Positions 6,703 to 25,114 of a stretch of DNA of 64,000 nucleotides are shown here, piece by piece. The notes under the pieces are model-generated. The model made no database searches and was not told where the DNA came from. It saw only the letters and a list, made by a program, of their open reading frames with translations. Made by a program: the position numbers and the translations under genes. Each line of letters begins with the position of its first letter. Position 1 is the stretch's first letter. The stretch is from a virus. The stretch is from positions 1 through 64,000 of the IMG/VR virus record IMGVR_UViG_3300045988_083604. The stretch is one strand, 5' to 3'.

Positions 6703-6780
6703 TGCCTCTTAGCTCAAAAGCCAGAGCCTCACAGATGTAATATCATGCGAGAGATGATGGTTCGAATCCATCAGAGGTAA
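6703..6780 (+). ncRNA. tRNA-like element with canonical acceptor, D and T arms but no 7-nt anticodon loop
   Basis: Acceptor tgcctct/agaggta (U1-A72); D arm gctc-aaaagcca-gagc; T arm gatgg-ttcgaat-ccatc. The 27 nt in between fold only into an irregular extended stem. Confidence 0.4.
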
Positions 6781-6801
6781 CTTCTTTTATAGGTTTAGTG
6801 T

Positions 6802-6840
6802 GAGGGTGAACTGTTCGTGAGAATCGTTCACTCTTATTTT
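6802..6840 (+). terminator. conserved-loop hairpin plus T-tract (family member 1)
   Basis: Stem gtgaac/gttcac, loop tgttcgtgagaatc, then tcttatttt. Confidence 0.55.
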
Positions 6841-7213
6841 ATTTAATACAGCTTGGGAGTTTATAAAATACAATAACATAAAATTAAAACATAATCAATA
6901 TGCGAGAAAAAGTAATAGAGTTTATTGTAGCTAATACGTCCTTTAGTTACGATGAACTTAAAACGTGGTCTAACAAAGAGTTAGATGACTTTATGGGACG
7001 TGCTTTTCCAGTAGAATATTAAAAAACATTATCAAGTATGAATAAATACAATCCTGAAGAACTAAGTGTTGCTATCAAAGCAGCACTTAATAAAGGTATC
7101 AAAGGAGAAAGAAATCGCAGAACATCTTAGTAGATATTTTGGAGTATTGATAACAGAAGCTAAATTTGGAGATCTTAAAGACTTCTCCGTTTTAGCATAT
7201 AAACCTGAAAACA

Positions 7214-7414
7214 ATGAGTAAATTAATGCTATCTTTCACAGCCACATTTTGTGCTACAATGTGTGCTGTTCTACTATATGTAGAAAGAGATAATTTAAGT
7301 ACTAGCACAGACGAAAATATTATTTTGAGTATACTTTTTGCGGTAATTGCCATATTGTCATTCTTGATATTCTATAAAGAGTGCAATGATTGGTTTCACT
7401 TAAATGAAGAATAA
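7214..7414 (+). CDS. small membrane protein, 66 aa
   Basis: ORF track; two hydrophobic segments. Confidence 0.5.
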   Translation: MSKLMLSFTATFCATMCAVLLYVERDNLSTSTDENIILSILFAVIAILSFLIFYKECNDWFHLNEE

Positions 7415-7715
7415 GGTTATGAAAATGGAAACAAAATATCTTATTGTAGATACGATAGGACTTGTTCTTATTTTCTGTCTCTCACTAACTTCAGCAATTG
7501 CACAATGCTCAACTGAGCGTGATAACAAGCGATTAACTGAAATAATTGAAAGACAGAAAAAGCTTATTGAAAAATATAAGCAGTTTGAAGATATATCTGT
7601 ACAAATCTACATTAACCAAGTAGATAGTACAGGTGATACATTCGATAGCTCGGACAATGGAGTGTTATTTTGGAACACTCTATCGGAAATCGATAGTCTA
7701 AGAAACTTAAAGTAG
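7404..7715 (+). CDS. small membrane-anchored protein, 103 aa; terminates at TAG
   Basis: ORF track; N-terminal hydrophobic segment; overlaps the previous ORF. Confidence 0.5.
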   Translation: MKNKVMKMETKYLIVDTIGLVLIFCLSLTSAIAQCSTERDNKRLTEIIERQKKLIEKYKQFEDISVQIYINQVDSTGDTFDSSDNGVLFWNTLSEIDSLRNLK

Positions 7716-7750
7716 TTCCATATCATTTACATTTTAAAATTAGACAAGGG

Positions 7751-7780
7751 CTCTACGGTTCGTGAGAATAGTAGAGTTTT
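7751..7780 (+). terminator. conserved-loop hairpin plus T-tract (family member 2)
   Basis: Stem ctctac/gtagag, loop ggttcgtgagaata, then tttt. Confidence 0.6.
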
Positions 7781-7921
7781 AACCATTACTGATGAGTCTT
7801 TGAAAATTAAGACGAAACACGAAAGTGTCTAATGGAGCCATATTTAGAATTTTGACTGTAATTCCTTTGTGTAATATCAAAGGGAACAATACTGGTCTGT
7901 GAAGATAGGTATTGTTTTTAT

Positions 7922-7992
7922 TGGACTATGGTGTAATGGGAACACAACAGTTTTTGGCGCTGTTGTTCCAGGTTCGAATCCTGGTAGTCCAA
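7922..7992 (+). tRNA. tRNA-Gln(UUG)
   Basis: Hand-folded cloverleaf: acceptor tggacta/tagtcca (U1-A72), D arm gtgt-aatggga-acac, anticodon arm acagt-ttTTGgc-gctgt, T arm ccagg-ttcgaat-cctgg; no encoded CCA. Confidence 0.85.
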
Positions 7993-8062
7993 CTAATAAC
8001 GATATAGGCAGAGTCAGCAATGCTATGCAATTTGTTTTTAATTGTTTATATTTATTAATTTT

Positions 8063-8092
8063 CTACACGATTCGTAAGAATAGTGTAGTTTT
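8063..8092 (+). terminator. conserved-loop hairpin plus T-tract (family member 3)
   Basis: Stem ctacac/gtgtag, loop gattcgtaagaata, then tttt. Confidence 0.6.
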
Positions 8093-8123
8093 CTTAGATT
8101 ACTCATTAAATATATATATATAC

Positions 8124-8588
8124 ATGACCGCAGAAGAATTTTTGAAAAACGACAATTCTTATCTTGTTGTCCCACATAAAACTACAAACATTTTCAGTAA
8201 GGCTTTTTGGGAAGAAGCTGATAATAAAAACCTTAACCATAAATTTGCAGGTTCCAAAGGAAATCAACGTGAAGCTTATGAAGCCGGAGTTAAGATAGGA
8301 TGGGAAGAAGCTACTAGAACTCTTAAGGATTCTTTGAAAGTTCCTAATAATGTTAACCTTACTGATAAAGAATATAAAGATATAATAGCACTTCTTAGTG
8401 CTTTTGGTTATCAATTTACATATATTAATCTTAATCCTTACATGGGTAATACAGGAAATTTAGTTCCAGGACTTAATATTTGTAAGAATATATCAGCTAT
8501 TGAAGCAGGTGTAGTTTTATCAGAAGAAGATAAGCAAGAAGTAATAAAAACTTTAAAAGAAAAAGCTAACCCACGTTTATTTAGTTAA
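8124..8588 (+). CDS. hypothetical protein, about 154 aa
   Basis: ORF track 7899..8588, trimmed to ATG 8124 because the upstream part overlaps tRNA-Gln and a terminator hairpin. Confidence 0.55.
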   Translation: MTAEEFLKNDNSYLVVPHKTTNIFSKAFWEEADNKNLNHKFAGSKGNQREAYEAGVKIGWEEATRTLKDSLKVPNNVNLTDKEYKDIIALLSAFGYQFTYINLNPYMGNTGNLVPGLNICKNISAIEAGVVLSEEDKQEVIKTLKEKANPRLFS

Positions 8589-8611
8589 AAATTATTTTAT
8601 ATGATTATCTC

Positions 8612-8736
8612 GGACATGTCTATGGTAGAAAGCAAAAGTCACACCGAAAGTCGTGAGTTCAATTCTCACCATATATAACCTTACCATAATTAATCGGTGT
8701 TGGCAGTAAAAATAAGTTCGATTCTTATCATGTCCA
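8612..8736 (+). ncRNA. 125-nt tRNA-like element with two T-arm-like hairpins
   Basis: Outer acceptor-like helix ggacatg/catgtcc; T arm ataag-ttcgatt-cttat next to the 3' strand; D-loop-like tatggtaga. An internal 7-bp helix acaccga/tcggtgt encloses a second hairpin gtgag-ttcaatt-ctcac. Confidence 0.3.
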
Positions 8737-9062
8737 CTACAAGCTATTTGTAAGTCCAAGACATCAGCTTATTAACTTCTTTATGTGACAGATAAAGAAG
8801 ATTTTAAATTCTAAACAATAGTATTGCAATACGTTTAGACAAGGACGCACGTAGTAGGTGAAGAGGAGTAGCTAATCCAAATTACCGAAACCTTGTAAAA
8901 TCCCCGTGCACGCATACAGAGTGATTCACTGTGAAGAATTTCGTAATTTCCTTAGGTCTCTATTGATGTTGTGAATAATAGTAGCAATGGTTAAAATGAG
9001 AATATTGCCTGTAGAAACAGGAATTTGGGCATTAAATTAAATCCTAGCCCGGGGTAAATAAA

Positions 9063-9356
9063 ATGAAAACAGAGCACAAATCAATTGTAGCAGTTTCAAC
9101 AGATGGTACTTATGCTGTACGAGCATTGTTTGATAAAAATTATCAGCTATGTGATATACAGCCAAGAGTACAAGGTAAATTTGTAGATGGTCGTTTTCGC
9201 AGCGTAACACAAGAGACGCTGAACATGTATCACGGTCAACCTTATGACGTGTGTCATGATGAAGTACTAATTAACTTAAAATGGATAGCTGACAATGAAA
9301 GAAACACATTCGAAGAAGGTTTTGCAGAACCAAGTGAATCCGCCGAAGAAGAGTAA
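9063..9356 (+). CDS. hypothetical protein, 97 aa
   Basis: ORF track. Confidence 0.55.
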   Translation: MKTEHKSIVAVSTDGTYAVRALFDKNYQLCDIQPRVQGKFVDGRFRSVTQETLNMYHGQPYDVCHDEVLINLKWIADNERNTFEEGFAEPSESAEEE

Positions 9357-9631
9357 GTGGAACCAAAAGTGTTGGAAAATATATTTCAAACACGATGGAT
9401 GTTCAATGTTGTTATTTGACAACTTGACAGGTGTTAATGCCATGATACGCGCAAAAACGTTATCAAGGTTATACAACAGCTGGAAAGGCAAGTTTATCAT
9501 TACAAAATAAGTTAATTATGGAAAAGACAATAATAATGCCTGGACAATTTGTGACATTCGAAAATGCAATATACAAAGCTAAAAAATGTTACACGAATAA
9601 GATTTAAAAGATCTATTAATAAAACGAAAAA

Positions 9632-9862
9632 ATGAAAATTATTGTTAACAACGCTTCTCATCTATGTAAATGTTATAGATGTGGATCAAAATTAGAGGTA
9701 AGTCCTAGCGACATAAAAAACAAAAGTTTCTCTGGAAGAGATTGTGAACTTGCTGAAAGATACTACTTTGTGTGTCCATGTTGTGAAGCAAAAAATGATG
9801 TGGATTTACAAACGTTTTATACTTTCGAACCTTATGTGGATAAAAACGCAATAATATTATAA
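9632..9862 (+). CDS. small zinc-ribbon protein (CxxC...CxxC)
   Basis: ORF track; CYRCGS and CPCCEA pairs. Confidence 0.55.
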   Translation: MKIIVNNASHLCKCYRCGSKLEVSPSDIKNKSFSGRDCELAERYYFVCPCCEAKNDVDLQTFYTFEPYVDKNAIIL

Positions 9863-9989
9863 AGATGAATCAGAAAACAAAAATAGCAGCAGTTAAAGCA
9901 TCGTTAAAACAGGATGAACGTACTACTTTAAATATCATCACTGATAAGTTATCAGATGATGATATTGATTATTTAACATCTAAAATTCT

Positions 9990-10205
9990 ATGATAAAAAA
10001 GCGTTTAAAGCCAGGACAGTTGTTCACAATGTACAATCATATTTGGCAAGTTCGAAAATGTACAAGATGGCCTTGTGGTAATTGTGAACTATATCCGTAT
10101 CGGATATCATTAATAGTAAAATGGGATGTTAATCCATGTGATCAATTATGTTTGTGTGGTAAAAACATCATACCTTCAGAATATGTTGCAGTATTAGTAA
10201 AATGA
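9990..10205 (+). CDS. hypothetical Cys-rich protein, 71 aa
   Basis: ORF track; ATGA overlap with the next ORF. Confidence 0.5.
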   Translation: MIKKRLKPGQLFTMYNHIWQVRKCTRWPCGNCELYPYRISLIVKWDVNPCDQLCLCGKNIIPSEYVAVLVK

Positions 10206-10624
10206 AAAATCAAGACGAACAGTATTCAAATGTATGCGGTAAAACATTAGCAATATTATTGTTGATAGTAATAGCACTATTAATAAGTGCTAATAAGTGT
10301 TCCGCACAGTCATATAAAACTGTAAAACCAACAGTACAATATGACACAATTCCAGTAATTAACAAAAATATATCTACAGTTTATCTCATGGAAAAAAGAA
10401 ACTATATGATATATAAGTATAAAGGATGTAATGAAGCTATTCAAGTTTCTAAATCCATTGTTGATTACATGTTATTATGCTGTGAACTTAAGTGTTCCTG
10501 TAATCTCGCCATCCTTAAACGTAAAAAGGACGGCGTATTCTCTCGTGTCATAAAATACAAACCAAATTATGACAGATCTCAATCAGAAAACGACATTCTA
10601 AATTTTAAAGTTTATCAAAAATGA
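10202..10624 (+). CDS. secreted or membrane-anchored protein, 140 aa
   Basis: ORF track; N-terminal signal-like segment ILLLIVIALLISANKCSA. Confidence 0.55.
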   Translation: MKNQDEQYSNVCGKTLAILLLIVIALLISANKCSAQSYKTVKPTVQYDTIPVINKNISTVYLMEKRNYMIYKYKGCNEAIQVSKSIVDYMLLCCELKCSCNLAILKRKKDGVFSRVIKYKPNYDRSQSENDILNFKVYQK

Positions 10625-10989
10625 AAACAGAATTGAAAAAACAAGCAGAGTTAATAATCGATGTATGCAACGCTAGAACATTCGCTCAGCAGATATTAGA
10701 TCCGATACTATCCTTCGGGAATAATGGTATTGGACTAACAAAATTGTCTATGAACCAAGCAGAAAACAAAATAAAGCTTGAAATATTCACAGTGACGGAC
10801 AAAGAACGTTACTTTAAGTTCATGGGTAAAATCTACGATGCAGCCGCTAAGTGGAATGCATCCCACAACATGATTGAAGAGGTCGCAAAAATAATGGAGG
10901 ATACCATTTATGGTGAGACACAGAACAAGACAACAAAGTGTGGAGGAACTCACAAAACGAAGATTCCACGCAGAGGTAAGAAAGCTTAA
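10621..10989 (+). CDS. hypothetical protein, 122 aa
   Basis: ORF track; ATGA overlap with the previous ORF. Confidence 0.55.
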   Translation: MKTELKKQAELIIDVCNARTFAQQILDPILSFGNNGIGLTKLSMNQAENKIKLEIFTVTDKERYFKFMGKIYDAAAKWNASHNMIEEVAKIMEDTIYGETQNKTTKCGGTHKTKIPRRGKKA

Positions 10990-11179
10990 AGCTGTATGTG
11001 AACAAGAGGGATGGGAATTAAGTCATTACGACTTATCCCGTCCCGATTGGGTGTGTATATTATCGGAAAGTGATTATGAATTAAAGTCGGACATGTATGA
11101 ATGTTCTGAGGATAATGAAAATTACTTCCTAAGTCCTGAAGATTATAATCAATATAAAGAAAAATATGAATACGAATAA
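10910..11179 (+). CDS. hypothetical acidic protein, 89 aa
   Basis: ORF track; overlaps the previous ORF by 80 nt, so the real start is uncertain. Confidence 0.4.
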   Translation: MVRHRTRQQSVEELTKRRFHAEVRKLKAVCEQEGWELSHYDLSRPDWVCILSESDYELKSDMYECSEDNENYFLSPEDYNQYKEKYEYE

Positions 11180-11759: not shown

Positions 11760-11815
11760 AATAAAAACAGTTAGTATAAAATAATAGAATAACAAACTTT
11801 TAAATAAAAATAAGT

Positions 11816-12040
11816 ATGCGTAGTATTATAGACAATCTTAAAGAGATTGAAGAAGAAAATCTCAAAGAAGTCATCTCATTGACCAATGAGAATGACAGAT
11901 TAAAGAGAAGAATAGCTGCATTTGAAAAAGATGTAATACATACAAATATAGCTATTAAACGATCGTATGAAAAAGGATTTTTCGACGCAATAACAAAAGT
12001 TAAAGATGTAATTGACCAATTACGTCCTCAATGTGGATAA
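11816..12040 (+). CDS. small coiled-coil protein, 74 aa
   Basis: ORF track. Confidence 0.5.
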   Translation: MRSIIDNLKEIEEENLKEVISLTNENDRLKRRIAAFEKDVIHTNIAIKRSYEKGFFDAITKVKDVIDQLRPQCG

Positions 12041-12107
12041 AGTATTGCTCATGAATGTGATCCTCCTGAAAACGATGATACGAACACGTGTCGTAAATAA
12101 ACATTCC

Positions 12108-12146: not shown

Positions 12147-12255
12147 CATAGTAAAATAACTACGGTATTCTTTCCGTAACGGTCCGAAGTCCGTGTAAAT
12201 ATTGACGGCTATAGAGTTAATTAACATATACTTAACGTTTTAAAATTTATCAAAA

Positions 12256-12696
12256 ATGAAAAAACTAAAATTTATCCATGTAATGCTAATTGTGGCATTC
12301 GCAACTTTGTGTTTCGCATCGTGTAAACACAAATCTGGACCAAATGGTTCAGACAAAGAAGCTGTACAAATCACACAAACTGATGTTGATTATGTACAAG
12401 CATGTCTAGAAGAAATCAACAACGAACGATACAAGTCAGTAGATGACTTTGTCTCGTCAATGATGGTTAAGAACTATGACATGCACATCGACAGTGTGAT
12501 CTGTTCTATTCCAACACGAAAATTGGAACAAATCTCTACAGCTGTATATTCCAAATATGGATATATAACTAAAGAGTTGATTGCAAAAGAATATGACGAA
12601 TATTACCAGCAGGTATATAAATACATACCTGTCGATATGTCGGAATCTGAAAACACTGTACCAGACACAACTATAAATAATAATAATAAACGATGA
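12256..12696 (+). CDS. lipoprotein, 146 aa
   Basis: Signal peptide with lipobox-like FASC (MKKLKFIHVMLIVAFATLCFASCK). Confidence 0.65.
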   Translation: MKKLKFIHVMLIVAFATLCFASCKHKSGPNGSDKEAVQITQTDVDYVQACLEEINNERYKSVDDFVSSMMVKNYDMHIDSVICSIPTRKLEQISTAVYSKYGYITKELIAKEYDEYYQQVYKYIPVDMSESENTVPDTTINNNNKR

Positions 12697-13586: not shown

Positions 13587-13640
13587 CCCGATCATATAGA
13601 TAGGTTAGTAAGTTAATTAACAATTTAAATCATTATCAAA

Positions 13641-14183: not shown

Positions 14184-14467
14184 AGAATCTTAGAATCAGA
14201 CACTTATTTGCCAAACAGTTCGTATAAGTCGCAAATGGGTCGCGTCGATGATGGCGTTTTTAATGAATTGACATTAGCACAAAGAATCTTAGAATCATGT
14301 GGGAAGAAGACTCTCAACGTAGGGAGAATAAACTATACGTACACAGATCAAACAAATAACATTTGTGAACCATCGAGTCGTTTATTCTAAGATCACGTGA
14401 GGTGTAAGGAATAACCAAGTGTACTGTCAAAGTGTCAAGTTTATGACGTTCAAGAATCTCAGAATCA
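14184..14467 (+). repeat. three direct copies of the 15-mer AGAATCT(T/C)AGAATCA
   Basis: Copies at 14184-14198, 14283-14297 and 14453-14467 in ORF-free DNA; partial inverted copy near 14384. Confidence 0.7.
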
Positions 14468-14664
14468 GAACATTATCATAACAACATATTTAGTATATTA
14501 AACAGATATATCGAATCATATTACTACGAAGATTAAGAGTAGCTAACTTATGATTCAAAGTATATGCTGAGACAAACATTCTGTTTAATCTACCTAAGTA
14601 TATAGAATCTGATCAATTCTATATACTACAAAATGAAATCGTTTGAGTATGAGTTAATTATGTA

Positions 14665-14693
14665 GGACGAGGGTTCGAATCCCTCCACGTCCA
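14665..14693 (+). ncRNA. acceptor/T-arm minihelix (tRNA top-half mimic)
   Basis: ggacg-aggg-ttcgaat-ccct-cca-cgtcc-a; no matching distal 5' acceptor strand found upstream. Confidence 0.35.
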
Positions 14694-14857
14694 CTCTTGT
14701 TTATATATAAGGGCGTGACCGGTTTTGACTGCATAAGGAAGTAAATACGAGATTTCAGAAATCGATAAATCAGAACAATAACATTGTTGACTATACTCAC
14801 GTAGCGTGAGTATGAGTCCTGACAATTCCTTGAGTCAGTTGGAAAAATAGGATGGTT

Positions 14858-14909
14858 GGAGAAGTACTAATAACTACGGAGTTGTGGGGTTCGAATCCCT
14901 ACTTCTCCT
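14858..14909 (+). ncRNA. 51-nt mini tRNA-like element
   Basis: Perfect 7-bp acceptor ggagaag/cttctcc; T arm tgggg-ttcgaat-cccta; only 20 nt replace the D and anticodon arms. Confidence 0.4.
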
Positions 14910-18927: not shown

Positions 18928-18947
18928 ACTTTAAAAACATTATCAAA

Positions 18948-19349: not shown

Positions 19350-21400
19350 GGCTATTCAGTCGTAGACATCTCCGTCAGTACTTATAATGGGTCTCATTAG
19401 CCCATGTACGAAAGAAACTTGATCCGAGAATATGTTAACCTTCTCAAAAGGCGAGATCACTCAAAAGGTAGGATGAAATGTATTATATGTGAAAAGTATA
19501 ATATAAGTGGGGAGAGCGTTGTATTAACCCCAACAGCGTTATTGAGAACCGTCTGGCGAATAACGGCTTAGGAAGACGCGTAAGTCTCAAGAAGAGCAAA
19601 ACAATCCAGTAGCTAATACTCCTTGTAGTTTTGATGTAGACTACATTGGTAACTGAATACAAGTGTTGAAACATATGAAATTCCAAACTTCATATGATAC
19701 ATCATTGCTTAATCTAGTGTTCCACAGCTCCAAACTGTGTATGAAGGGATGAAAATTTTATTAGGGTGTAAGATAGGATAGAGAAGGACTTAGCAGGTAG
19801 TATGTGAGTCAGATCATACTATTGTCAGTTAGGCTAAGCTACGCAGTAAACGTAGTGTCCAGGGATAAATCTGTGCCGTTCGATTCGGCAACCTTTTGAG
19901 CCAAAGAAGGGTCCGGGGATGCAGTAAAGAGTTGAGGCTGAGAAAACTATCTGCTTACAATGAGATAAGACCGCCAGGCTTTGGTCGTTTATGCGGTATA
20001 TAAAAGTAAAATGACCAGATACGTGAAGCAAACTGTATAGCTCCCAGAGTCAGCGTTCATAGGACTGAGGGCAGGATTGTAATATAAGACATTAGCAATC
20101 TTATATTATATGAAATGTGGAATAAAGGTGATTACTTGACAATCAAAAACCACCATTTCGTATTTTATGGTTTAACATTAAATGCACATTTATAATATAA
20201 GCATAACACTCCAGTTATAACCTGAAAATTATAGATGCCTATAAAACATTTACAAAATTAGTATATACATATTCAATATAACATATAATATCTATTATCC
20301 TCTGTATAAAGAAAAAGAACCGTTAGGAATAATGATAGTTATTATATATAATAATAGTGCATATGTTATGAGTATAAGTAAATATACAAAATCGAGTATT
20401 GTAAGGTGTAGGAAAGAAGCTACATATCAAGTTCTAAAATAACATTTATTAACAAAAATTGATGTCCCCAGATAGTGAAAAACTTATGTTGTAAATAAGG
20501 AGTAATGAGGTCTGGAAGTTCGAGTGCCAACCGTTATGATAACCAGTGTAAAGTATACATCCGCAAGTGTATATGTACAGCTAAAGGTAGAATCAATACA
20601 GAAAACATAGTAGGCAGCATATTATTAAAATGAGAAATCATACTAGCAGTGCAAAAGCGTATGCCTGTGGGACGAACCCACCACGATCTACACTGTCTCT
20701 GTAGGGCGTGAAAATAATATGTGGGTGATAACATGTAAGTATGTACGGGGTTGAAATCCCTAATATTCGTGCACTATAAACAAAAGAGGTTTTTAGCAAG
20801 ATTTTCCATCGAATAATCACCGTAGAGTCGTAGATACCCCCTGAAGGCTAGACTGTCCGATAATGAAACGTTACTATTGATTATTCTGCTTACGTTTAAA
20901 AGGAAGAATAGTGGTTGATGCGCCTAAACAGTATCGTAAGACTGTACAGCATCGGGAGAATGTGTTTGTTGTTATTGGGAAATACACGACCAAGACATTC
21001 TCTATTTTTATTTTTGTTGGATAATACACATTATCTCAGCCAATGAACCCTCCGCGATTCCTGAAACATCAGAGCGTTGGACGGATGATGTGTATAAACT
21101 TTATTTCAAAAAATCTAGTTTTACTCTAAAAGATTTAGTATATGATATACAAAAGGTCATTCAAAGCTTTCCTATAGAGATATAGGATTAGTTGTATATA
21201 CTCATAAGAGGCTAAGCTGTTTCTACCGTTGAAACCCTCTTATGATGACTTACACGGAAAAGCGGTCAAAATAAAAGTTGACACCTTTATTTATAAATCT
21301 TGAGTATAAAAACTTTAAAGCTTTCTCTGAGCTGAGAGGAGAATAATATATAATTTATCGTGGGTGTAATCAAACACGATATCAAATAGGATAAATTATT
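19350..21400. other. about 2 kb ORF-free region: two helix-rich flanks around an AT-rich core; candidate large structured RNA(s) and/or origin
   Basis: Only short, non-overlapping ORFs (60-67 aa) in the ORF track. Many strong hairpins (catatgaa/ttcatatg, cataagagg/cctcttatg, atcgtg/cacgat, tgccg-ttcgatt-cggca). Group I R-like gtagactaca at 19636 and S-like tagtgtccag at 19851. Confidence 0.3.
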
Positions 21401-22009
21401 ATGGACAATAACAATGTAAATATCAATGTAAGATTAGTGGAAGACAATCGAGTAAATATCAGTAGTTTTGGTTCGCTTTATGGTAAGCGAATCTTTAAAG
21501 CAGTCAAACTCTCATGTGATCTTGACTTCCAAAAGCGTCTTCGTGACGCAAATGAGAATAATGGACTTGTAACCAACCGTGCTCCGCTGCGTTATAAGAT
21601 CGTACCTATTGACATAGTAGGTCTTGATCTTGACAAGGACGTTGACGGAACTAATGTAATTGTGATCAATAAGGGTCGCAAGGACGAGGCTGGTGAGTCT
21701 ATTGAGGTTCGTTGTCCAATTGACAACGAGAAGTTCACAAAGGATGTTACAACTGAGACTGTAACAGACGCGTTGAACAAGAAGGATTTTATTACTACAT
21801 ACTTCGCAAACGCAAAGAAGCTTGCTGAGGCACTGAATCCTGCAAATGCAACAGAGATGAACCGTATCGATGCTCTCATTCGAGATCTTGAGAAGCAGCG
21901 TAAGATGATCCAGGATACATTCGATAAGAATATTTCTGGTGTAAACGATTACTACCGTCAGCTCGATCAGAAGAAGAGCGAGGTACATGTAAATGTAACA
22001 GTTGACTAA
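21401..22009 (+). CDS. hypothetical protein, 202 aa, GC-richer codon usage
   Basis: ORF track; antisense shadow ORFs; stop overlaps the next start. Confidence 0.65.
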   Translation: MDNNNVNINVRLVEDNRVNISSFGSLYGKRIFKAVKLSCDLDFQKRLRDANENNGLVTNRAPLRYKIVPIDIVGLDLDKDVDGTNVIVINKGRKDEAGESIEVRCPIDNEKFTKDVTTETVTDALNKKDFITTYFANAKKLAEALNPANATEMNRIDALIRDLEKQRKMIQDTFDKNISGVNDYYRQLDQKKSEVHVNVTVD

Positions 22010-22536
22010 TGAAAAAGATTAGCCTTAAGAGCAAACTACAAATACAAATTCTTTTTTTGGACCCGACGATCAAACGGAACCTGATTGACGAGTCTAAAAA
22101 AGAATTATATAGTCGAATTACTATTAATGATGACGGATCTATCACTTTTGGAAAGACAGGGTGTCTTTGGTGGAATCGTCTTCTTGGTGATGAAATGACT
22201 ATATCTTTTGCAGATTTTGCAATTAAAACTGTAGCAGCTCTTGCAGGACAGGAACGTAATATCAACGATGTGATACTCAAAGGCTTGAGTGAGGAGGTAA
22301 TACGTAATGCTGTAATGCAAGATAAATACGACATGGTAGTCGATCGTTTATTTGATGCCGCAAGGTATGGTGTTAAAGGTCCTCTAAATACTGAGGGCTT
22401 CTCTGTAAGTGATAAAATAGATAAACACATTAAAATTGAAACCAAAGATGGTGTACGAGTAGCACGCTTGCCGGGATCAGGCGATCCCTTGTGCGAAATC
22501 AGAGTTGGTGTCAAGGGTGTTGATTTTTATGAATAG
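22009..22536 (+). CDS. hypothetical protein, 175 aa; terminates at TAG
   Basis: ORF track; a long antisense shadow ORF 21876..22514 was rejected. Confidence 0.6.
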   Translation: MKKISLKSKLQIQILFLDPTIKRNLIDESKKELYSRITINDDGSITFGKTGCLWWNRLLGDEMTISFADFAIKTVAALAGQERNINDVILKGLSEEVIRNAVMQDKYDMVVDRLFDAARYGVKGPLNTEGFSVSDKIDKHIKIETKDGVRVARLPGSGDPLCEIRVGVKGVDFYE

Positions 22537-22631
22537 TTATTTTGTAGGTTAAACAGGCGTTTGATTACAAATCTTACATACTATTATATATTCACTTTAG
22601 TGTTGGGGCACATAGTACCCCGACTCAATTA

Positions 22632-23158
22632 ACCTTCATGGCGGAATTGGTAGACGCTTTGGACTTATTAAACCTTAGTAATAAGGAATTTGAGTGCCCT
22701 ATGAGAAATCATAGGAGTAGAATCTCCCTAATCAAACAGTTGCTATGAAATCAACTGCGACAGAAGCCTCGCTTATGGTGACATAAGCTTTGGTGATGAC
22801 GAGCTAAATTGAAACAATATAAAATGATTAGTATTTCCCGAGACCGGTCAAGAAATATTAATAAGTTTGAATACAAAGTTTTATAATTCATAAATGTGTA
22901 GAGACTATAGAGGAGATGCCTAAGTTTAAGTATACAAATATGTATTACTTAAATATGGTAATAAAATAGTCCAGACCACAAAAACTTACATGAAAGGTAT
23001 TTCACTATAATCATTACTAAATGTGTTAAGTACTGTAACTTCATGCTAGCGTTGAACGTAATGAGTAGGACGTAAGTAAGTTTGCTTGTGTAAAAGCAAG
23101 TGTGGTAAGAAAATCCAATGACCATACGGTCGTGCGGGTTCGATCCCCGCTGGAGGTA
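22632..23158 (+). tRNA. tRNA-Leu(UAA) interrupted by a group I intron between anticodon positions 34 and 35
   Basis: 5' exon accttca-tg-gcggaattggtagacgc-t-ttgga-ctT. 3' exon AAaa-tccaa-tgaccatacggtcgt-gcggg-ttcgatc-cccgc-tggaggt-a. Acceptor 7 bp, anticodon stem ttgga/tccaa, class II variable arm gacc-atac-ggtc. Confidence 0.85.
22667..23109 (+). ncRNA. group I intron, about 443 nt, without an ORF
   Basis: Follows U34 and ends in G. R-like gtgtagagactatag (22896-22910) and S-like aatagtcc (22965-22972) give P7 gacta/tagtc. GUAA-capped hairpin cctta-gtaa-taagg near the 5' end. Confidence 0.75.
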
Positions 23159-23218
23159 CGATATTTTAGGAAACATTATTATTTATTATTACTATTTATT
23201 ATTTTGTTGAGTTTGTAA

Positions 23219-23249
23219 CTCTTCGGTTTGTGAAAATAGAAGAGTTTTT
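23219..23249 (+). terminator. conserved-loop hairpin plus T-tract (family member 4)
   Basis: Stem ctcttc/gaagag, loop ggtttgtgaaaata, then ttttt. Confidence 0.6.
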
Positions 23250-23250
23250 A

Positions 23251-23335
23251 CGGTGTGTTACAACAATCAAATAATCATTTGTTTACTGTTTCTCAATTTT
23301 GTAGGTAACATGAGGTGCAAGTCCTCACACACCGA
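23251..23335 (+). ncRNA. 85-nt tRNA-like element with an irregular anticodon arm
   Basis: Acceptor cggtgtg/cacaccg 7 bp; D stem acaa/ttgt with a 15-nt loop; T arm tgagg-tgcaagt-cctca; the central arm has a 10-14 nt loop containing ttCTCaa. Confidence 0.35.
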
Positions 23336-23395
23336 CTAGGTAAACGATTTTTTTCAAATTCATATCAATATGTTTAATTTAAATCAAATCGAAAT

Positions 23396-23950
23396 ATGAA
23401 TAAGAACAAATCAATGAAATTAAGCTCAAAGGATATCATTATTGCTCGTGATAACATTTGTAAGACAAAGACAAAGTATTGGCGTATTATACGTTCAGAG
23501 AACGTTATAAGTAAGAAGGCTAAGGCAGCCGGAATGGGTTCAGGTTTTGACCTAACACAATTGCATAATGAGATTCTTCAAATGTCTAATACACTCATTA
23601 AGATTAAACTTATGTTAAATGCTATTAATAATGGCATTAAGGAGTTTAACTTTGAGGAGGCTAAGAAGACACATTATTATACAATTTACGCAGCTTGTGA
23701 GAAGAAAGAGCAACTTGCACATTGGGAAGAGATTCTCAAGAAGAGTACAATTAATCCAGCTACGAAAGCTAAAGCTGGAACAAAGGGTACTGGAAAAATA
23801 GAGACGTTTACATCAGCTAAGATTACTGCAATAAAGAAGAAGTTGCAGCTTGAGATAAACAAGCTTGATGCTGATATTGCTAAGTTTAATAATGAGGCAA
23901 GTCTCGAAACATCAGATATTGATGATATTAAGCATTATTTTACAGCTTAA
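23396..23950 (+). CDS. hypothetical helical protein, 184 aa
   Basis: ORF track. Confidence 0.6.
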   Translation: MNKNKSMKLSSKDIIIARDNICKTKTKYWRIIRSENVISKKAKAAGMGSGFDLTQLHNEILQMSNTLIKIKLMLNAINNGIKEFNFEEAKKTHYYTIYAACEKKEQLAHWEEILKKSTINPATKAKAGTKGTGKIETFTSAKITAIKKKLQLEINKLDADIAKFNNEASLETSDIDDIKHYFTA

Positions 23951-24101
23951 ATAACATATAAATGCCTTATGAATATGGTCAGCACATAGATGCACAGGGT
24001 CGGGTCCTGTTATGGCAACAATTAAAATAAGACGATTTAAGCATATATAATATTATTCTGGATAGTTTTATCATCAGAGTAATTAAAACGCGTTAAAACG
24101 C

Positions 24102-24971
24102 ATGAAAACACGCTTAAAATCAATTTTTTTAACCATTAAAAGCATAATCAATATGAAAAAGAATAATATAAGTAAGAACCTCAAGAAAGTAGATATAAAT
24201 ACACAAATAGTAAAACGTTTTGACAATTTTTGCACAACCAAAAGAGCAGAAAATCTCGTTATAGATGTGGATAGACTTGGAATACAAGACTTGTTAAAGA
24301 AATATGGTCTTAAATATCTTACTAAATTAAGACCTTTTGGTTCAGAATACACAATACGACAATTTATAAGAATGCGTATGGAGAAGATTGGAATAAATCA
24401 TAATTATACGCATATTTATAACGGTGTATTCACTCCAAGAAAGGATTTGAATACAAAACTTCCATGGAATCTGACTAAAGAGGAGATTAATATGATATGG
24501 AAGAAACGAGAAAATGCTTTCAAATTAGGATATGCAGAGCGTTTGCATATGCTTGAGGATCATAAAGTTGATAAATGGGAGGAGAAACATCGTCCCACAT
24601 TTGAGGAGTTGAAACAGGATTTATTCCCCAGAGCACTATTACAAGGTTTTTTCGACCTTCGAGACAAAAAACGAGAGATTATACGAGAGGATTTAGCTGG
24701 AAAGTATCCTCCGAAGAATAGTTGTGTTGTTACTGTAAGATTTTATAGTGACGATGGAACTGTTATAAATGAAAAAGTATTCGGACATTTATATGATCCG
24801 ACAAACATAATAAACACACGTCCTAGTTATTATACTGTTCAGAAGAAAAGTGAACGAATTAAATCAGTCGCTACTAAGCTTAAAAATAGAGCTGTTGCTA
24901 TATTTGGAGACGATTTAATTTGTTTAAAGGTATTCTGTCATAATAGTAATGACGTAGGAATGTGGGTTTAA
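24102..24971 (+). CDS. hypothetical protein, about 275-289 aa
   Basis: ORF track; alternative start MKKNNISK at about 24144. Confidence 0.6.
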   Translation: MKTRLKSIFLTIKSIINMKKNNISKNLKKVDINTQIVKRFDNFCTTKRAENLVIDVDRLGIQDLLKKYGLKYLTKLRPFGSEYTIRQFIRMRMEKIGINHNYTHIYNGVFTPRKDLNTKLPWNLTKEEINMIWKKRENAFKLGYAERLHMLEDHKVDKWEEKHRPTFEELKQDLFPRALLQGFFDLRDKKREIIREDLAGKYPPKNSCVVTVRFYSDDGTVINEKVFGHLYDPTNIINTRPSYYTVQKKSERIKSVATKLKNRAVAIFGDDLICLKVFCHNSNDVGMWV

Positions 24972-24997
24972 CAATCTAGACCGACCTTGCGGTTGGA

Positions 24998-25114
24998 ACC
25001 CTATTTTCACATCTCACATAATGTTGTTCTTGCAAATCAGTGGATTCGCAGTTGCATAATTTTGAATTCAGTACCGAGAAGGGTGAACATCAGGTTCGAG
25101 TCCTGAATAGGGAA
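24998..25114 (+). ncRNA. Y-shaped tRNA-like element (acceptor, T arm and one long insert arm)
   Basis: Acceptor ccctat/ataggg; T arm tcagg-ttcgagt-cctga. Helix ttcac(25006-25010)/gtgaa(25084-25088) abuts both and replaces the D and anticodon arms. Confidence 0.3.

What the first reader, a model, noticed from the sequence alone, without database searches (positions are those of the whole stretch)
6703..25114. A recurring family of acceptor/T-arm tRNA-like modules with aberrant or missing anticodon arms
Besides the two true tRNAs, at least six plus-strand elements combine a 6-7 bp acceptor-like helix directly stacked on a T arm (mostly GTTCGAnTC loops). The body between them is non-canonical:
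- 6703-6780: extended central arm.
- 8612-8736: second T-like hairpin inside a 7-bp arm.
- 14665-14693: bare minihelix.
- 14858-14909: 20-nt body.
- 23251-23335: 10-14 nt central loop.
- 24998-25114: single long arm.

All sit in ORF-free stretches, often at their 3' ends.

Functions that could fit are processing signals, tRNA mimics that titrate host anticodon nucleases or modification enzymes, or Y-RNA-like or tmRNA-like tRNA-domain mimics. All of this is speculation.
Basis: partly seen in the sequence, partly recalled or inferred. Interest (0 to 1): 0.7.

Follow-up and report, generated by a model that had tools for sequence, protein, structure and literature searches.

The report
tRNA-shaped punctuation elements in a crAss-like phage
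This gut crAss-like phage carries several stripped-down tRNA look-alikes that keep only the acceptor stem and T arm, the part tRNA-cutting enzymes recognise. They sit where related phages carry real tRNAs, so they most likely mark where long phage RNAs are cut, although one of the six is simply part of a known two-piece tmRNA.

Summary
All six elements are at the stated coordinates on the + strand. T-arm hairpins number 10 on + and 0 on −, against 0.41 expected from shuffles.

They are not one sequence family:
- **14665-14693** is the tRNA-like domain of a permuted (two-piece) tmRNA. It scores 63 bits against Rfam RF04321, has G3:U70, and is already annotated as SsrA in RefSeq crAss genomes.
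- **6703-6780** is a degenerate tRNA (Rfam 39.7 bits) with an unusable anticodon arm.
Relatives at about 78% identity keep them, with compensatory changes in both stems and bodies of 0-120 nt.
- **8612-8736** is a nested, lineage-specific copy.

In related phages the same syntenic slots hold either a real tRNA of varying identity or such a minihelix. The slots are after the tmRNA, 21-29 nt before the DNA polymerase ATG, and 17-30 nt before the primase ATG.

Best reading (confidence about 0.5): these are t-element-like processing signals for host RNase P, RNase Z and CCA enzyme. The Y-RNA, suppressor-tRNA and chance readings were tested and not supported. No RNA-end data exist, so the function is inferred.

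The parts
6703..6780 (+). Degenerate tRNA / tRNA-like element. It has a 7-bp acceptor (TGCCTCT/AGAGGTA), a D arm and a canonical T arm. The 'anticodon' arm is an irregular 9-10 bp hairpin with a 3-5 nt loop.
   Evidence: Rfam tRNA 39.7 bits, gathering score 29. ARAGORN accepts it only with an artificial 7-nt intron. Fold z = -3.0. The copy in the closest relative L081 has the two top acceptor pairs broken and is not called by Rfam. No other homologue in IMG/VR.
7922..7993 (+). Bona fide tRNA-Gln(UUG), used as the reference for a normal phage tRNA. CCA is not encoded; the trailer is A-CTA.
   Evidence: ARAGORN; Rfam 64.3 bits.
8612..8736 (+). Nested tRNA-like element. The outer part is a 7-bp acceptor (GGACATG/CATGTCC) plus a T arm (ATAAG TTCGATT CTTAT). 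It encloses a second T-arm hairpin (GTGAG TTCAATT CTCAC, 8653-8669).
   Evidence: Strict scan; fold z = -2.8. It lies in an 833-bp segment (8114-8946) absent from relatives L081 and L082. No homologue in IMG/VR. A homologue of the neighbouring ORF in L084 lacks the element. The same nested design occurs in L004 15522-15642.
14634..14694 (+). Two-piece tmRNA, acceptor piece: P2 3' strand, T arm 14669-14685, acceptor 3' strand CACGTCC 14686-14692, A73 at 14693.
   Evidence: Rfam tmRNA_permuted 63 bits, gathering score 47. Homologues in L081, L082 and L083. ARAGORN calls permuted tmRNA in L010, L011, L053 and L074. RefSeq crAss records annotate SsrA at the matching place.
14695..14710 (+). Intervening segment of the permuted tmRNA gene, which by analogy with other permuted tmRNAs would be removed during maturation. 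It is 16 nt here and tens of nt longer in relatives.
   Evidence: Alignment to RF04321; sequences of homologues.
14711..14857 (+). Two-piece tmRNA, coding piece: acceptor 5' strand GGGCGTG (giving G3.U70), GGTTTTGAC, a tag frame ending ...NIVDYTHVA-TGA (stop at 14807-14809) inside a hairpin, a further covarying hairpin (CTGAC/GTCAG), and a single-stranded tail.
   Evidence: The tags ARAGORN reads in relatives are DNTNNIVNYTHVA* and GTKNVIDYSCVA*.
14858..14909 (+). Minihelix t-element directly after the tmRNA: acceptor GGAGAAG/CTTCTCC, 20-nt body, T arm TGGGG TTCGAAT CCCTA. The downstream gene's ATG is 17 nt after the acceptor.
   Evidence: Strict scan; fold z = -3.3. In 8 syntenic homologues 97.9% of cells pair, 11 of 12 pairs show changes on both sides, and 0/500 shuffles reach this. 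Body length ranges from 0 nt (L010) to 33 nt. In cr273_1 real tRNA-Met and tRNA-Leu occupy the slot.
19782..19897 (+). It sits at the 5' part of a 1.9-kb ORF-free conserved stretch.
   Evidence: It is syntenic in L081 and L083 (T stem TGCTG/CAGCA, compensatory) and in L006, L010, L014 and L074.
22632..23159 (+). tRNA-Leu(UAA) interrupted after U34 by a 443-nt group-I-type intron (22667-23109). This is the second 'true tRNA'.
   Evidence: ARAGORN -i. The intron is absent in L081, L001, L003, L004 and L007. It is 90-95% identical to a stretch in the split primase genes of IAS virus and cr116_1.
23251..23335 (+). Minihelix t-element: acceptor CGGTGTG/CACACCG, T arm TGAGG TGCAAGT CCTCA, 53-nt variable body. 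It follows a conserved-loop hairpin with no gap and precedes a conserved leader, a 9-aa uORF and a gene.
   Evidence: Strict scan. Orthologues in L001, L003, L004 and L007 have bodies of about 17-55 nt. 95% of cells pair, 7 of 12 pairs show changes on both sides, 0/500 shuffles reach this.
24998..25114 (+). Long-bodied t-element in the DNA-polymerase slot: 6-bp acceptor CCCTAT/ATAGGG, T arm TCAGG TTCGAGT CCTGA, 85-nt hypervariable body. The acceptor ends 27 nt before the polymerase ATG (25141).
   Evidence: The acceptor covaries in orthologues: CCCTG/CAGGG in L007, CCCCG/CGGGG in L003, CCCATA/TATGGG in L014. Across 57 unique polymerase-upstream sequences the slot holds 10 ARAGORN tRNAs and 26 other sequences with a perfect 5-bp T-type hairpin, most with a 6-7/7 acceptor.
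25127..25141 (+). Direct-repeat motif AGAATC-AT-AGAATC-A whose last A is the A of the polymerase ATG. Other copies are at 14184-14198, 14283-14297 and 14453-14467, upstream of the tmRNA. It is a candidate promoter or cleavage site adjacent to the t-elements.
   Evidence: The related leader ACTAACTAAGAACTTATAAGTCATG precedes the primase gene in relatives.
31458..31511 (+). The acceptor ends 28 nt before the primase ATG (31539).
   Evidence: The gene is a primase (phrog_12622, 7.5e-36). In 40 unique relatives the slot holds 7 tRNAs, 26 tRNA-like elements and 7 neither.

Best explanation
The elements are cis-acting, tRNA-shaped RNA-processing signals. They are phage counterparts of the 't-elements' of plant mitochondria. 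They lie in the early/middle (replication) half of a TAG-recoded crAss-like phage of the Suoliviridae type.

**What is kept.** Each keeps only the 11-12 bp coaxial stack of acceptor stem on T arm. By established knowledge this is all that RNase P, RNase Z and the CCA-adding enzyme need to recognise a tRNA. The rest of the tRNA body is free to shrink to nothing or grow to about 120 nt.

**Proposed action (inferred).** The elements are transcribed within long + strand transcripts. RNase P would cut at the 5' edge of the minihelix. A 3' endonuclease of the RNase Z type would cut after A73. This would separate the upstream RNA from the downstream one.

- After the tmRNA gene, this would set the 3' end of the tmRNA coding piece. 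tRNA-processing enzymes already mature the other ends of a permuted tmRNA (PMC11915505).
- In front of the DNA polymerase, the primase and the gene after the tmRNA, it would end the upstream unit 17-30 nt before the next start codon.

**Origin.** The elements most likely arose from phage tRNA genes that lost decoding function while selection kept the processing signal.

**Shown:** presence, strand bias, excess over chance, conservation with compensatory changes, interchangeability with real tRNAs at fixed slots, and shared A73 and trailer.

**Inferred:** transcription, cleavage by RNase P/Z, CCA addition, and any effect on expression.

Element 14665-14693 is excluded from this explanation. It is part of a bona fide two-piece tmRNA.
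For: 1. **Not chance, and strand-specific.** T-arm hairpins number 10 on + and 0 on - in the window, against 0.41 in shuffles. Strict minihelices number 177 on + and 2 on - in 1.24 Mb of related loci; 73 unique ones are not ARAGORN tRNAs.
2. **Selection acts on the minihelix only.**
   - Family 14858: 97.9% of cells paired, 11/12 pairs with double changes, 0/500 shuffles.
   - Family 23251: 95% paired, 7/12 pairs with double changes, 0/500 shuffles.
   - Bodies vary from 0 nt (L010) and 2 nt (L066) to more than 100 nt, with indels.
3. **Slot equivalence with real tRNAs.**
   - Polymerase slot: 57 unique sequences, of which 10 hold tRNAs (Leu, Met, Asn, Ile, Ser and one of undetermined identity) and 26 hold another perfect T-type hairpin. 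Nearly all tRNA-type elements end 21-29 nt before the ATG.
   - Primase slot: 7 tRNAs, 26 tRNA-like and 7 neither, out of 40.
   - tmRNA 3' slot: a minihelix in 8 loci, and real tRNA-Met plus tRNA-Leu in cr273_1.
4. **Same end signature as the phage's real tRNAs.** N73 is A in 65% of tRNA-like elements and 72% of tRNAs. The trailer is CAA, CTA or CAT in 63% and 76%. No encoded CCA was seen among the common trailers.
5. **A continuum of Rfam tRNA scores.** In seven loci checked, tRNAs found by both tools score 57-68 bits, degenerate copies 31-49 bits, and bare minihelices are not hit.
6. **Proximity to start codons.** 29 of 79 tRNA-like elements end 10-30 nt before the next ORF start, against 20 of 253 random non-ORF positions.
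7. **Context rich in other RNA-processing motifs.** These include twister-like and hammerhead-like hits and RAGATH-12.
8. **Precedent.** t-elements with the GGTTCRANYCC motif direct RNase P/Z cuts that form mRNA ends and receive non-templated C/CCA (PMC1920247). RNase P also processes pre-tmRNA, phage M3 RNA, C4 antisense RNA and operon mRNAs (PMC11143913).
Against: - There are no RNA-end, RNA-seq or enzymatic data. Cleavage is inferred from shape alone.
- The nucleotide before the acceptor is mostly A in the tRNA-like elements (59%) but T in the real tRNAs (69%). That is not what one expects if both were optimised for the same RNase P.
- Element 24998 and its orthologues have only a 5-6 bp acceptor.
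- The direct-repeat motif between the element and the polymerase ATG also occurs three times with no ATG upstream of the tmRNA. If it is a promoter or cleavage site, the polymerase mRNA 5' end would not depend on the t-element. The element would then serve only the upstream RNA.
- Element 23251 directly follows a terminator-like hairpin, which is odd for an element meant to be read through.
- The related loci are phylogenetically linked and centred on the polymerase, so the counts are not independent events.
- In the covariation alignments the 5' strand was located by complementarity after the body was removed.
- Elements 6703 and 8612 have no distant homologues, so nothing shows they are under selection.
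Confidence: 0.5

Rival explanations
1. Trans-acting tRNA mimics. After release and CCA addition, the minihelices would act as small RNAs that bind or titrate host factors recognising the acceptor/T-arm half of tRNA. Candidates are acceptor-end toxins or nucleotidyltransferases, modification enzymes, EF-Tu or SmpB. A Y-RNA-like partnership with a Ro protein is a special case.
For: The conserved, covarying minihelix and canonical T loop are equally what a protein- or enzyme-binding mimic would need. Several copies per genome would suit titration. PhiCrAss001 has two 138- and 143-nt tRNA-like RNAs directly downstream of its TROVE/Ro gene. Mycobacteriophage DS6A encodes little more than the tmRNA tRNA-like domain, and a similar molecule strongly inhibits tmRNA (PMC4131195).
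Against: - No TROVE/Ro homologue was found in the window or the 83 loci, and the crAss records among the 81 phage matches belong to the PhiCrAss001 group.
- There is no Rfam Y-RNA hit.
- None of the window's minihelices has G3:U70.
- A decoy role does not explain the fixed positions just upstream of particular start codons and just after the tmRNA, nor the replacement by ordinary tRNAs of any identity.
- Decoys for anticodon nucleases are excluded for elements that have no anticodon arm.
Confidence: 0.17
2. 3'-terminal caps or insulators rather than cleavage signals. The elements would mark the end of a transcription unit just upstream of the next promoter (the AGAATC-N-AGAATC-A motif). There they would protect the upstream RNA against 3' exonucleases or help termination. 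The downstream mRNAs would start at or near their AUG.
For: The motif ends exactly at the A of the polymerase ATG. It also occurs three times without any ATG ahead of the tmRNA, conserved in L081-L083. The acceptor end lies about 10 nt upstream of the motif. In L005, L006 and L012 a terminator-like hairpin takes the place of the tRNA-like element in the polymerase slot.
Against: The promoter nature of the motif is untested. Only four good copies exist in the window, and the slots after the tmRNA and at 23251 lack it. A simple hairpin would serve as a cap, so the strict conservation of T-loop sequence and of the A73/C-A/T-A trailer points to tRNA enzymes. This reading overlaps with the best explanation, because RNase P/Z could still trim the ends.
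Confidence: 0.15
3. Neutral wreckage. The elements would be decaying tRNA pseudogenes, or fragments left by recombination and intron mobility, with no function of their own.
For: Element 6703 scores as a weak tRNA, and its copy in the closest relative has a damaged acceptor and falls below Rfam's threshold. Element 8612 sits in a lineage-specific 833-bp insertion with no homologues. There is a continuum from tRNA to degenerate forms. A crAss preprint reports low-scoring 'pseudogene' tRNAs.
Against: Compensatory changes keep both stems paired across relatives of about 60-80% identity while the bodies turn over. The slots persist across DNA-polymerase identities down to 56%. Bodies of 0-2 nt with perfect 12-bp stacks are not what random decay produces. 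The strand bias is 177 to 2.
Confidence: 0.1
4. Unconventional decoding tRNAs. One candidate role is the missing amber suppressor needed by the TAG-recoded late genes.
For: The late half of the window reads TAG as sense, opening frames of up to 5462 aa. No suppressor tRNA is detected. Authors have proposed 'extremely divergent' suppressors in crAss-like phages (PMC7886860).
Against: No CUA anticodon stem-loop in a tRNA context exists anywhere in the window. No 7-nt deletion in the 6703 loop can produce CUA; the possible anticodons are AUC or AUG. Most elements have no anticodon arm. Lengths of 31-55 nt or above 100 nt are incompatible with bacterial ribosome and EF-Tu use.
Confidence: 0.03

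Closest known systems
t-elements of plant mitochondria (wheat, Arabidopsis, Brassica Ogura CMS); tRNA-like elements are also described in Haloferax (recalled, not checked here)
   Same: Both are tRNA-like modules with the GGTTCRANYCC T-arm motif and an acceptor stem but a non-canonical body. Both sit next to mRNA ends and are used interchangeably with real tRNAs. The plant elements are cut by RNase P and RNase Z and receive non-templated C/CCA (PMC1920247).
   Different: Those occur in organelles or archaea and have mapped RNA ends. Here the host is a bacteriophage of Bacteroidales, bodies can shrink to 0-2 nt, the slots are conserved across a phage family, and no ends have been mapped.
mascRNA / MALAT1-MEN-beta 3' end (Rfam RF01684) and the mitochondrial tRNA-punctuation model
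   Same: A tRNA-like structure placed after a non-coding RNA lets RNase P create that RNA's mature 3' end. This is the role proposed for 14858-14909 after the tmRNA coding piece.
   Different: There is no homology. The Rfam score is 22.2 bits against a gathering score of 42.5, E = 1.8. The comparison is between a eukaryotic nuclear setting and a phage.
Two-piece (circularly permuted) tmRNA, Rfam RF04321
   Same: Element 14665-14693 with 14711-14717 is a member. It has the permuted order, T arm, G3:U70 and a tag frame. Phage-encoded two-piece tmRNAs are known (PMC9004378), and SsrA is annotated in RefSeq crAss genomes.
   Different: This lineage is invariably followed by a tRNA or a minihelix, and its tag ends ...Y(T/S)(H/C)VA rather than LAA. 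The other five listed elements are not tmRNAs.
YrlA-type bacterial Y RNAs (tRNA mimics bound by Ro60/TROVE)
   Same: These have an acceptor-like stem, D and T arms, and a long helix replacing the anticodon arm, which resembles 6703 and 24998. PhiCrAss001 carries two such RNAs next to its TROVE gene.
   Different: No Ro/TROVE gene was found in this phage's window or in the related loci. There is no Rfam hit, and the shortest elements have no arm at all.
tRNA-like stable RNAs of T-even phages, and RNase P substrates such as P1/P7 C4 RNA and phage M3 RNA
   Same: These are phage-encoded non-tRNA RNAs matured by host RNase P (PMC11143913). The T4 species 1/2 RNAs are recalled from memory and were not checked.
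   Different: Those are single trans-acting RNAs. They are not a set of positionally conserved minihelices that alternate with tRNAs in front of genes.

Membership tests
Canonical tRNA (RF00005) | Detection by tRNA software at normal thresholds | tested here: not met
   ARAGORN finds only tRNA-Gln. Rfam at E <= 10 reports tRNA only at 7922 and 6703. Elements 8612, 14858, 23251 and 24998 are not hit. Element 6703 passes Rfam (39.7 bits, gathering score 29) but fails ARAGORN without a deletion.
Canonical tRNA (RF00005) | 5-bp anticodon stem with a 7-nt loop (U33 and an anticodon), and a length of about 70-95 nt | tested here: not met
   Element 6703 has a 9-10 bp irregular arm with a 3-5 nt loop. 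Element 14858 is 52 nt with a 20-nt body. Elements 23251, 24998 and 8612 have bodies of 53-93 nt without such an arm.
Canonical tRNA (RF00005) | 7-bp acceptor stacked on a 5-bp T stem with a T54-T55-C56-R57-A58 loop | tested here: met
   Two exceptions: 24998 has a 6-bp acceptor, and 23251 has the loop TGCAAGT.
Two-piece tmRNA (RF04321), for 14634-14857 only | Covariance-model score at or above the gathering threshold, with the permuted order (T arm and 3' acceptor strand before the 5' acceptor strand) | tested here: met
   63 bits against 47; alignment. Homologues score 57.5-66 bits.
Two-piece tmRNA (RF04321), for 14634-14857 only | G3:U70 alanine identity pair and the GGUUUYGAC motif after the 5' acceptor strand | tested here: met
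   GGGCGTG pairs with CACGTCC to give G3.T70. The pair is conserved in the six tmRNA sequences compared (window, L082, L083, L010, L074, L053), with covariation at 4:69 and 5:68. GGTTTTGAC is present.
Two-piece tmRNA (RF04321), for 14634-14857 only | Tag reading frame ending at a stop codon in a hairpin | tested here: met
   The frame reads ...NIVDYTHVA then TGA at 14807-14809, inside the hairpin ATACTCAC/GTGAGTAT. The tags ARAGORN reads in L074 and L010 are homologous. The resume codon was not determined, and ARAGORN does not call the window copy.
Two-piece tmRNA (RF04321), for 14634-14857 only | Processing into two base-paired pieces, alanylation, and SmpB-dependent trans-translation | not testable with these tools
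   Needs RNA and biochemical data.
t-elements (tRNA-like processing signals) | T-arm motif GGTTCRANYCC plus an acceptor-like stem with a non-canonical remainder | tested here: met
   The definition is taken from PMC1920247.
t-elements (tRNA-like processing signals) | RNA 5'/3' ends that coincide with the element's borders; cleavage by RNase P and RNase Z | not testable with these tools
   No transcript data are available. Support is indirect only: the slots are shared with real tRNAs and the trailer signature is shared.
t-elements (tRNA-like processing signals) | Released element carries non-templated C/CCA | not testable with these tools
   One search finds no encoded CCA among the commonest trailers, so addition would be needed. 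It has not been observed.
YrlA / Y RNA-like | Genomic association with a Ro60/TROVE gene, and a Ro-binding helix | tested here: not met
   tblastn of PhiCrAss001 gp96 against the window and 83 loci gave no hit. Among phage records, the crAss matches belong to the crAss001 group. Pfam found no TROVE domain in ten + strand ORFs.
mascRNA-menRNA (RF01684) | Covariance-model score at or above the gathering threshold | tested here: not met
   14858-14908 scores 22.2 bits against 42.5, E = 1.8. The resemblance is one of function, not of family.
Amber suppressor tRNA | CUA anticodon in a 7-nt loop on a 5-bp stem within a tRNA | tested here: not met
   The scan of both strands gave only 4/5-pair stems with no tRNA context. 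ARAGORN with introns allowed found none.

The most novel reading that the evidence does not exclude
A family of Crassvirales (Suoliviridae-like gut phages) runs a tRNA-punctuation system of its own. Minimal acceptor/T-arm minihelices, some only 31-50 nt long and evolved from phage tRNA genes, would be obligatory cis signals. Through them the host's RNase P, RNase Z and CCA enzyme would mature the phage's two-piece tmRNA and cut apart the transcripts of its replication genes. Self-cleaving ribozymes would do similar work elsewhere in the same region. If so, these would be t-elements in a bacterial virus, which the literature searched here does not describe. It would also tie expression of an abundant group of human gut phages to the host tRNA-processing machinery.
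Probability: 0.4. Interest if true: 0.72.

Novelty: new variant of a known kind. Interest (0 to 1): 0.6.

Why it matters
crAss-like phages are among the most abundant viruses of the human gut, yet how their long early and middle transcripts are matured is largely unknown.

If these minihelices are real processing signals, three things follow:
- The many low-scoring 'pseudo-tRNAs' reported in crAss genomes would be explained.
- Phages would be shown to retain tRNA genes for their shape as well as for decoding.
- There would be a concrete, testable answer to how the 3' end of a phage two-piece tmRNA is made.

It would also make annotation more honest. tRNA finders both miss these elements and occasionally miscall them.

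The practical consequence is a set of precise cleavage sites that can be checked in existing gut metatranscriptomes or in culturable relatives.

Tried and rejected
- **Ordinary tRNAs missed by software.** Rejected for five of the six. Element 6703 is borderline.
- **Chance.** Rejected by shuffles and by the opposite strand.
- **Hidden ORFs under alternative codes.** The ORF-free stretches stay closed with TAG or TGA read as sense.
- **Cryptic amber suppressor for the TAG-recoded late genes.** No CUA loop was found.
- **Y-RNA/Ro system.** No TROVE gene is present.
- **Element 8612 as part of a mobile cassette with ORF 8124-8588.** The ORF's only homologue (L084) lacks the element.
- **Exact-pattern scans of IMG/VR for 6703 and 8612.** They found only the closest relative, or nothing, so these two remain unsupported by comparison.
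- **ARAGORN -m on the window's tmRNA.** It finds nothing even at lowered thresholds. The tmRNA call rests on Rfam and on homologues.
- **MAFFT on full-length 23251 orthologues.** It misaligned the variable body, so body-deleted alignments were used instead.
- **RNase P RNA in the 1.9-kb ORF-free region.** A GGGTCCGGGG string suggested it, but there is no Rfam hit.
- **The same slots in PhiCrAss001.** Its replication genes are tightly packed with no such slots, so the arrangement is family-specific.
- **A first PWM/regex for the leader motif.** It was too strict and was redone.
- **Covariance model of the minihelix.** Not built. The variable body sits inside the helix, and the explicit pattern scan with strand and shuffle controls answered the same question.

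Full report
**What the window is**

The window has 31% G+C. Genes lie on the + strand from about 2 to 36 kb and on the − strand beyond. Megablast hits only crAss-like phages: IAS virus, cr116_1, cr273_1 and others. The DNA polymerase (25141-27051, phrog_1252) has 80 relatives in IMG/VR at 56-99% identity. RefSeq relatives such as cr273_1 are classified as Crassvirales, Suoliviridae.

The − strand half is TAG-recoded. With TAG read as sense, frames of 5462, 1828, 857, 721 and 638 aa open, against a maximum of 368 aa otherwise. The + strand half, which holds every element discussed here, uses the standard code. Its ORF-free stretches stay closed under TAG-sense or TGA-sense reading.

**Checking the observation**

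ARAGORN finds one tRNA, Gln at 7922-7993. Rfam at gathering thresholds adds a tRNA hit at 6703-6780 (39.7 bits) and a permuted tmRNA at 14634-14809 (63 bits, threshold 47). With introns allowed, ARAGORN finds tRNA-Leu(UAA) at 22632-23159, split by a 443-nt intron.

I wrote an explicit scan for a 5-bp T stem, a T[TG]C[GA]ANN loop and a directly stacked 7/7 acceptor.
- It returns 6703, 7922, 8612, 14858 and 23251 on the + strand and nothing on the − strand. Dinucleotide shuffles give 1.04 for both strands together.
- Element 24998 passes at 6/7.
- Counting G+C-containing T-arm hairpins alone gives 10 on +, 0 on −, and 0.41 ± 0.63 in 300 shuffles.

The sequence observation is therefore real and well above chance.

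**The tmRNA**

The 'bare minihelix' at 14665-14693 is the T arm (14669-14685) and acceptor 3' strand (CACGTCC, then A73) of a circularly permuted tmRNA gene. After a 16-nt intervening segment comes the 5' strand GGGCGTG (14711-14717), which gives G3·U70. This is followed by GGTTTTGAC and a tag frame ending ...NIVDYTHVA-TGA inside a hairpin.

Homologues in L081, L082, L083, L010 and L053 pass Rfam's threshold. ARAGORN calls permuted tmRNAs in L010, L011, L053 and L074, with tags such as DNTNNIVNYTHVA* and GTKNVIDYSCVA*. G3·U70 is conserved in all six sequences compared, and positions 4:69 and 5:68 covary.

This part is not new. Phage two-piece tmRNAs are documented (PMC9004378; PMC11915505). 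RefSeq crAss genomes annotate 'transfer-messenger RNA, SsrA' at the matching place. ARAGORN itself misses the window copy.

**The minihelices are conserved, and only as minihelices**

*14858-14909, directly after the tmRNA coding piece.* A counterpart exists in every locus where the tmRNA could be followed. The acceptors are:
- GGAGAAG/CTTCTCC
- AGAGAAG/CTTCTCT
- TGGTAGG/CTTACCA
- GGGAAAG/CTTTCCC
- AGGGAGG/CCTCTCT

The T stems also differ between loci, and the bodies run from 0 nt (L010) to 33 nt. On the body-deleted alignment, 97.9% of cells pair, 11 of 12 pairs change on both sides, and 0 of 500 shuffles reach this. Slid controls pair at 57-65%.

*23251-23335.* Orthologues located by flanking synteny in L001, L003, L004 and L007 have acceptors CGGTGTG, TGGTGTG, TGCCATG and TGATGTA, each with a matching 3' strand. 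The T stems covary, the loop TGCAAGT is invariant, and bodies are about 17-55 nt. 95% of cells pair, 7 of 12 pairs show double changes, and 0 of 500 shuffles reach this.

*24998-25114.* The acceptor covaries: CCCTAT/ATAGGG, CCCTG/CAGGG, CCCCG/CGGGG and CCCATA/TATGGG. The 85-nt body cannot be aligned.

*19782-19897.* It keeps its T arm through a compensatory change in L083 and recurs at the same distance from the polymerase in L006, L010, L014 and L074.

One caveat applies to the covariation counts. After the body was removed, the 5' strand was placed by complementarity. For a 7-mer in about 50 positions, the chance of a full match is roughly 5% per sequence. It was found in essentially every orthologue.

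**The slots**

*DNA polymerase slot.* In 57 unique polymerase-upstream sequences, 10 have an ARAGORN tRNA ending just before the ATG: Leu, Met, Asn, Ile, Ser and one of undetermined identity. Another 26 have a perfect 5-bp T-type hairpin, most of them with a 6-7/7 acceptor. Further classes with 4-bp T stems were seen by eye. Nearly all tRNA-type elements end 21-29 nt before the ATG.

*Primase slot.* The same holds for the gene at 31539-32522, a DNA primase (phrog_12622). Of 40 unique upstream sequences, 7 carry tRNAs (Leu, Lys, Pro, Met), 26 carry tRNA-like elements with bodies of 2-124 nt, and 7 carry neither. The acceptor ends 17-30 nt before the ATG.

*tmRNA 3' slot.* In cr273_1, real tRNA-Met and tRNA-Leu stand after the tmRNA, and the next CDS starts 27 nt later.

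*Family-wide counts.* Over all 83 loci (1.24 Mb), strict minihelices number 177 on the gene strand and 2 on the other. 73 unique ones are not ARAGORN tRNAs. All 125 ARAGORN genes are on the gene strand. In seven loci checked with Rfam, tRNAs found by both tools score 57-68 bits, three ARAGORN-negative elements score 31-49 bits, and the remaining dozen or so are not hit. This is a continuum from tRNA to bare minihelix.

*Shared ends.* The tRNA-like elements share the A73 and C-A/T-A trailer of the phage's true tRNAs. What is conserved at these places is therefore 'something tRNA-shaped', not a particular tRNA.

**Mechanism**

By established knowledge, the acceptor/T-arm stack is the minimal substrate of RNase P, RNase Z and the CCA-adding enzyme. 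Plant mitochondrial t-elements are defined by the same GGTTCRANYCC motif and a non-canonical body. They direct RNase P/Z cuts that form mRNA 5' and 3' ends, and they carry non-templated C/CCA (PMC1920247). RNase P also matures pre-tmRNA, phage M3 and C4 RNAs, and operon mRNAs (PMC11143913).

I therefore propose that these elements are phage t-elements.
- RNase P at the 5' edge would release the upstream RNA, including the 3' end of the tmRNA coding piece at 14857.
- A 3' cut after A73 would release the element and free the downstream RNA.

The surroundings fit a processing-rich region. Twister-like hits lie at 6287-6341 and 12148-12212 (E about 1e-7, below the gathering score). A hammerhead core lies at 7783-7835. 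A RAGATH-12-like RNA ends 7 nt before the ATG at 9063. In phage phi14:2, long intergenic regions are transcribed more strongly than most genes.

**What complicates it**

- Between the polymerase-slot element and the ATG lies a direct-repeat motif, AGAATC-AT-AGAATC-A, whose last A is the A of the ATG. Three more copies, not tied to any ATG and conserved in relatives, precede the tmRNA. If this is a promoter or cleavage site, the polymerase and primase mRNAs would be leaderless, and the t-elements would serve the upstream unit only. That is the third rival, which overlaps with the main explanation.
- Element 23251 abuts a recurrent hairpin with the conserved loop GGTTCGTGAGAATA and a T-run.
- The nucleotide before the acceptor is mostly A in the elements but T in true tRNAs.
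- Nothing here shows transcription or cleavage.

**The two singletons**

*6703-6780.* It has a D arm, T arm and acceptor. Its anticodon arm is a 9-10 bp irregular hairpin. Its only homologue, in the 95%-identical relative, has two broken acceptor pairs and drops below Rfam's threshold. It may simply be decaying.

*8612-8736.* It lies in an 833-bp insertion absent from relatives and has no homologue in IMG/VR. Its nested design does recur in L004 15522-15642. There an outer minihelix, orthologous to the window's 31458 element, encloses a degenerate tRNA.

**Rejected readings**

- *Y-RNA-like.* No TROVE/Ro gene is present in the window or the loci, and the crAss records that matched the Ro protein belong to the PhiCrAss001 group. 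PhiCrAss001 does carry two tRNA-like RNAs beside its Ro gene.
- *Cryptic amber suppressor.* There is no CUA loop anywhere in the window.
- *Literature.* Searches found nothing on tRNA-like processing elements in crAss-like or other phages.

**Verdict**

One element is a known tmRNA. The others are a positionally conserved class of tRNA-derived minihelices, best explained as t-element-like punctuation. This is a new variant of a known kind, supported by comparison alone.

Noticed in passing
window 35500-64000, - strand: The late-gene half is amber-recoded. With TAG read as sense, frames of 5462 aa (40980-57368), 1828, 857, 721 and 638 aa open, against a maximum of 368 aa under the standard, TGA-sense or TAA-sense codes. 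No CUA suppressor tRNA is detectable in the 64-kb window.
   Followed up: partly
window 22667-23109: A 443-nt group-I-type intron sits after U34 of tRNA-Leu(UAA), the classic cyanobacterial/plastid position. It is absent from all relatives, including the 95%-identical one. It is 90-95% identical to a stretch inside the split DNA primase genes of IAS virus and cr116_1, so it appears to be a recently mobile intron. Rfam's group I model does not hit it.
   Followed up: partly
window 6803-6835, 7750-7785, 8060-8095, 23215-23247; also L003, L004, L005, L007, L012: A recurrent hairpin with a covarying 6-8 bp stem and the conserved 14-nt loop GGTTCGTGAGAATA, followed by a T-run. It looks like a terminator with a sequence-specific loop. 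In some relatives it replaces the tRNA-like element in the polymerase slot. It is not in Rfam.
   Followed up: partly
window 14184-14198, 14283-14297, 14453-14467, 25127-25141: The direct-repeat motif AGAATC-TT-AGAATC-A occurs three times upstream of the tmRNA. It occurs once ending exactly at the A of the polymerase ATG. A related leader (ACTAACTAAGAACTTATAAGTCATG) precedes the primase in relatives. It is a candidate promoter or cleavage site and implies leaderless replication-gene mRNAs.
   Followed up: partly
window 19570-21400: A stretch of about 1.9 kb with no ORF in any tested code, conserved at about 78% in relatives. A comparable unannotated gap of about 2.2 kb lies at the equivalent place in cr273_1. 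It begins with the tRNA-like element 19782-19897. It could hold one or more large non-coding RNAs; no Rfam family matches.
   Followed up: no
window 6287-6341, 12148-12212, 7783-7835, 8979-9056: Two twister-P1-like hits (44 and 47 bits, E 5e-7 and 7e-8, below the gathering score). A hammerhead core (CUGAUGAG...CGAAAC) lies 95 nt upstream of tRNA-Gln. A RAGATH-12-like RNA ends 7 nt before the ATG at 9063. Structured RNAs precede several gene starts.
   Followed up: no
window 23375-23404: A conserved 9-codon upstream ORF (MFNLNQIEI) whose TGA overlaps the ATG of the 184-aa gene at 23396 (ATATGA). It is also present in L003, L004 and L007.
   Followed up: no
L087 (Bacteroides phage crAss001, MH675552) 46204-46341 and 46454-46596, - strand: Two tRNA-like RNAs of 138 and 143 nt lie directly downstream of the TROVE/Ro60 gene gp96. 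They have an acceptor and T arm, one has a canonical D arm, and a long insert replaces the anticodon arm. They are probable YrlA-type Y RNAs and are not annotated in the record.
   Followed up: partly
window 12215-12255, 13600-13640, 28550-28588: A second recurrent gene-start cassette, GTTAATTAAC(A)...TTTAAA...ATTATCAAAATG, lies in front of the genes at 12256 and 13641. A looser version precedes 28589, and partial matches precede 17152 and 18948. It is probably another promoter or leader class.
   Followed up: no
window 8114-8946: An 833-bp segment absent from the two closest relatives. It holds a 154-aa ORF that is 80% identical to an ORF in an unrelated 123-kb phage contig (L084). It also holds the nested tRNA-like element and about 200 nt of unassigned, possibly structured sequence.
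   Followed up: partly
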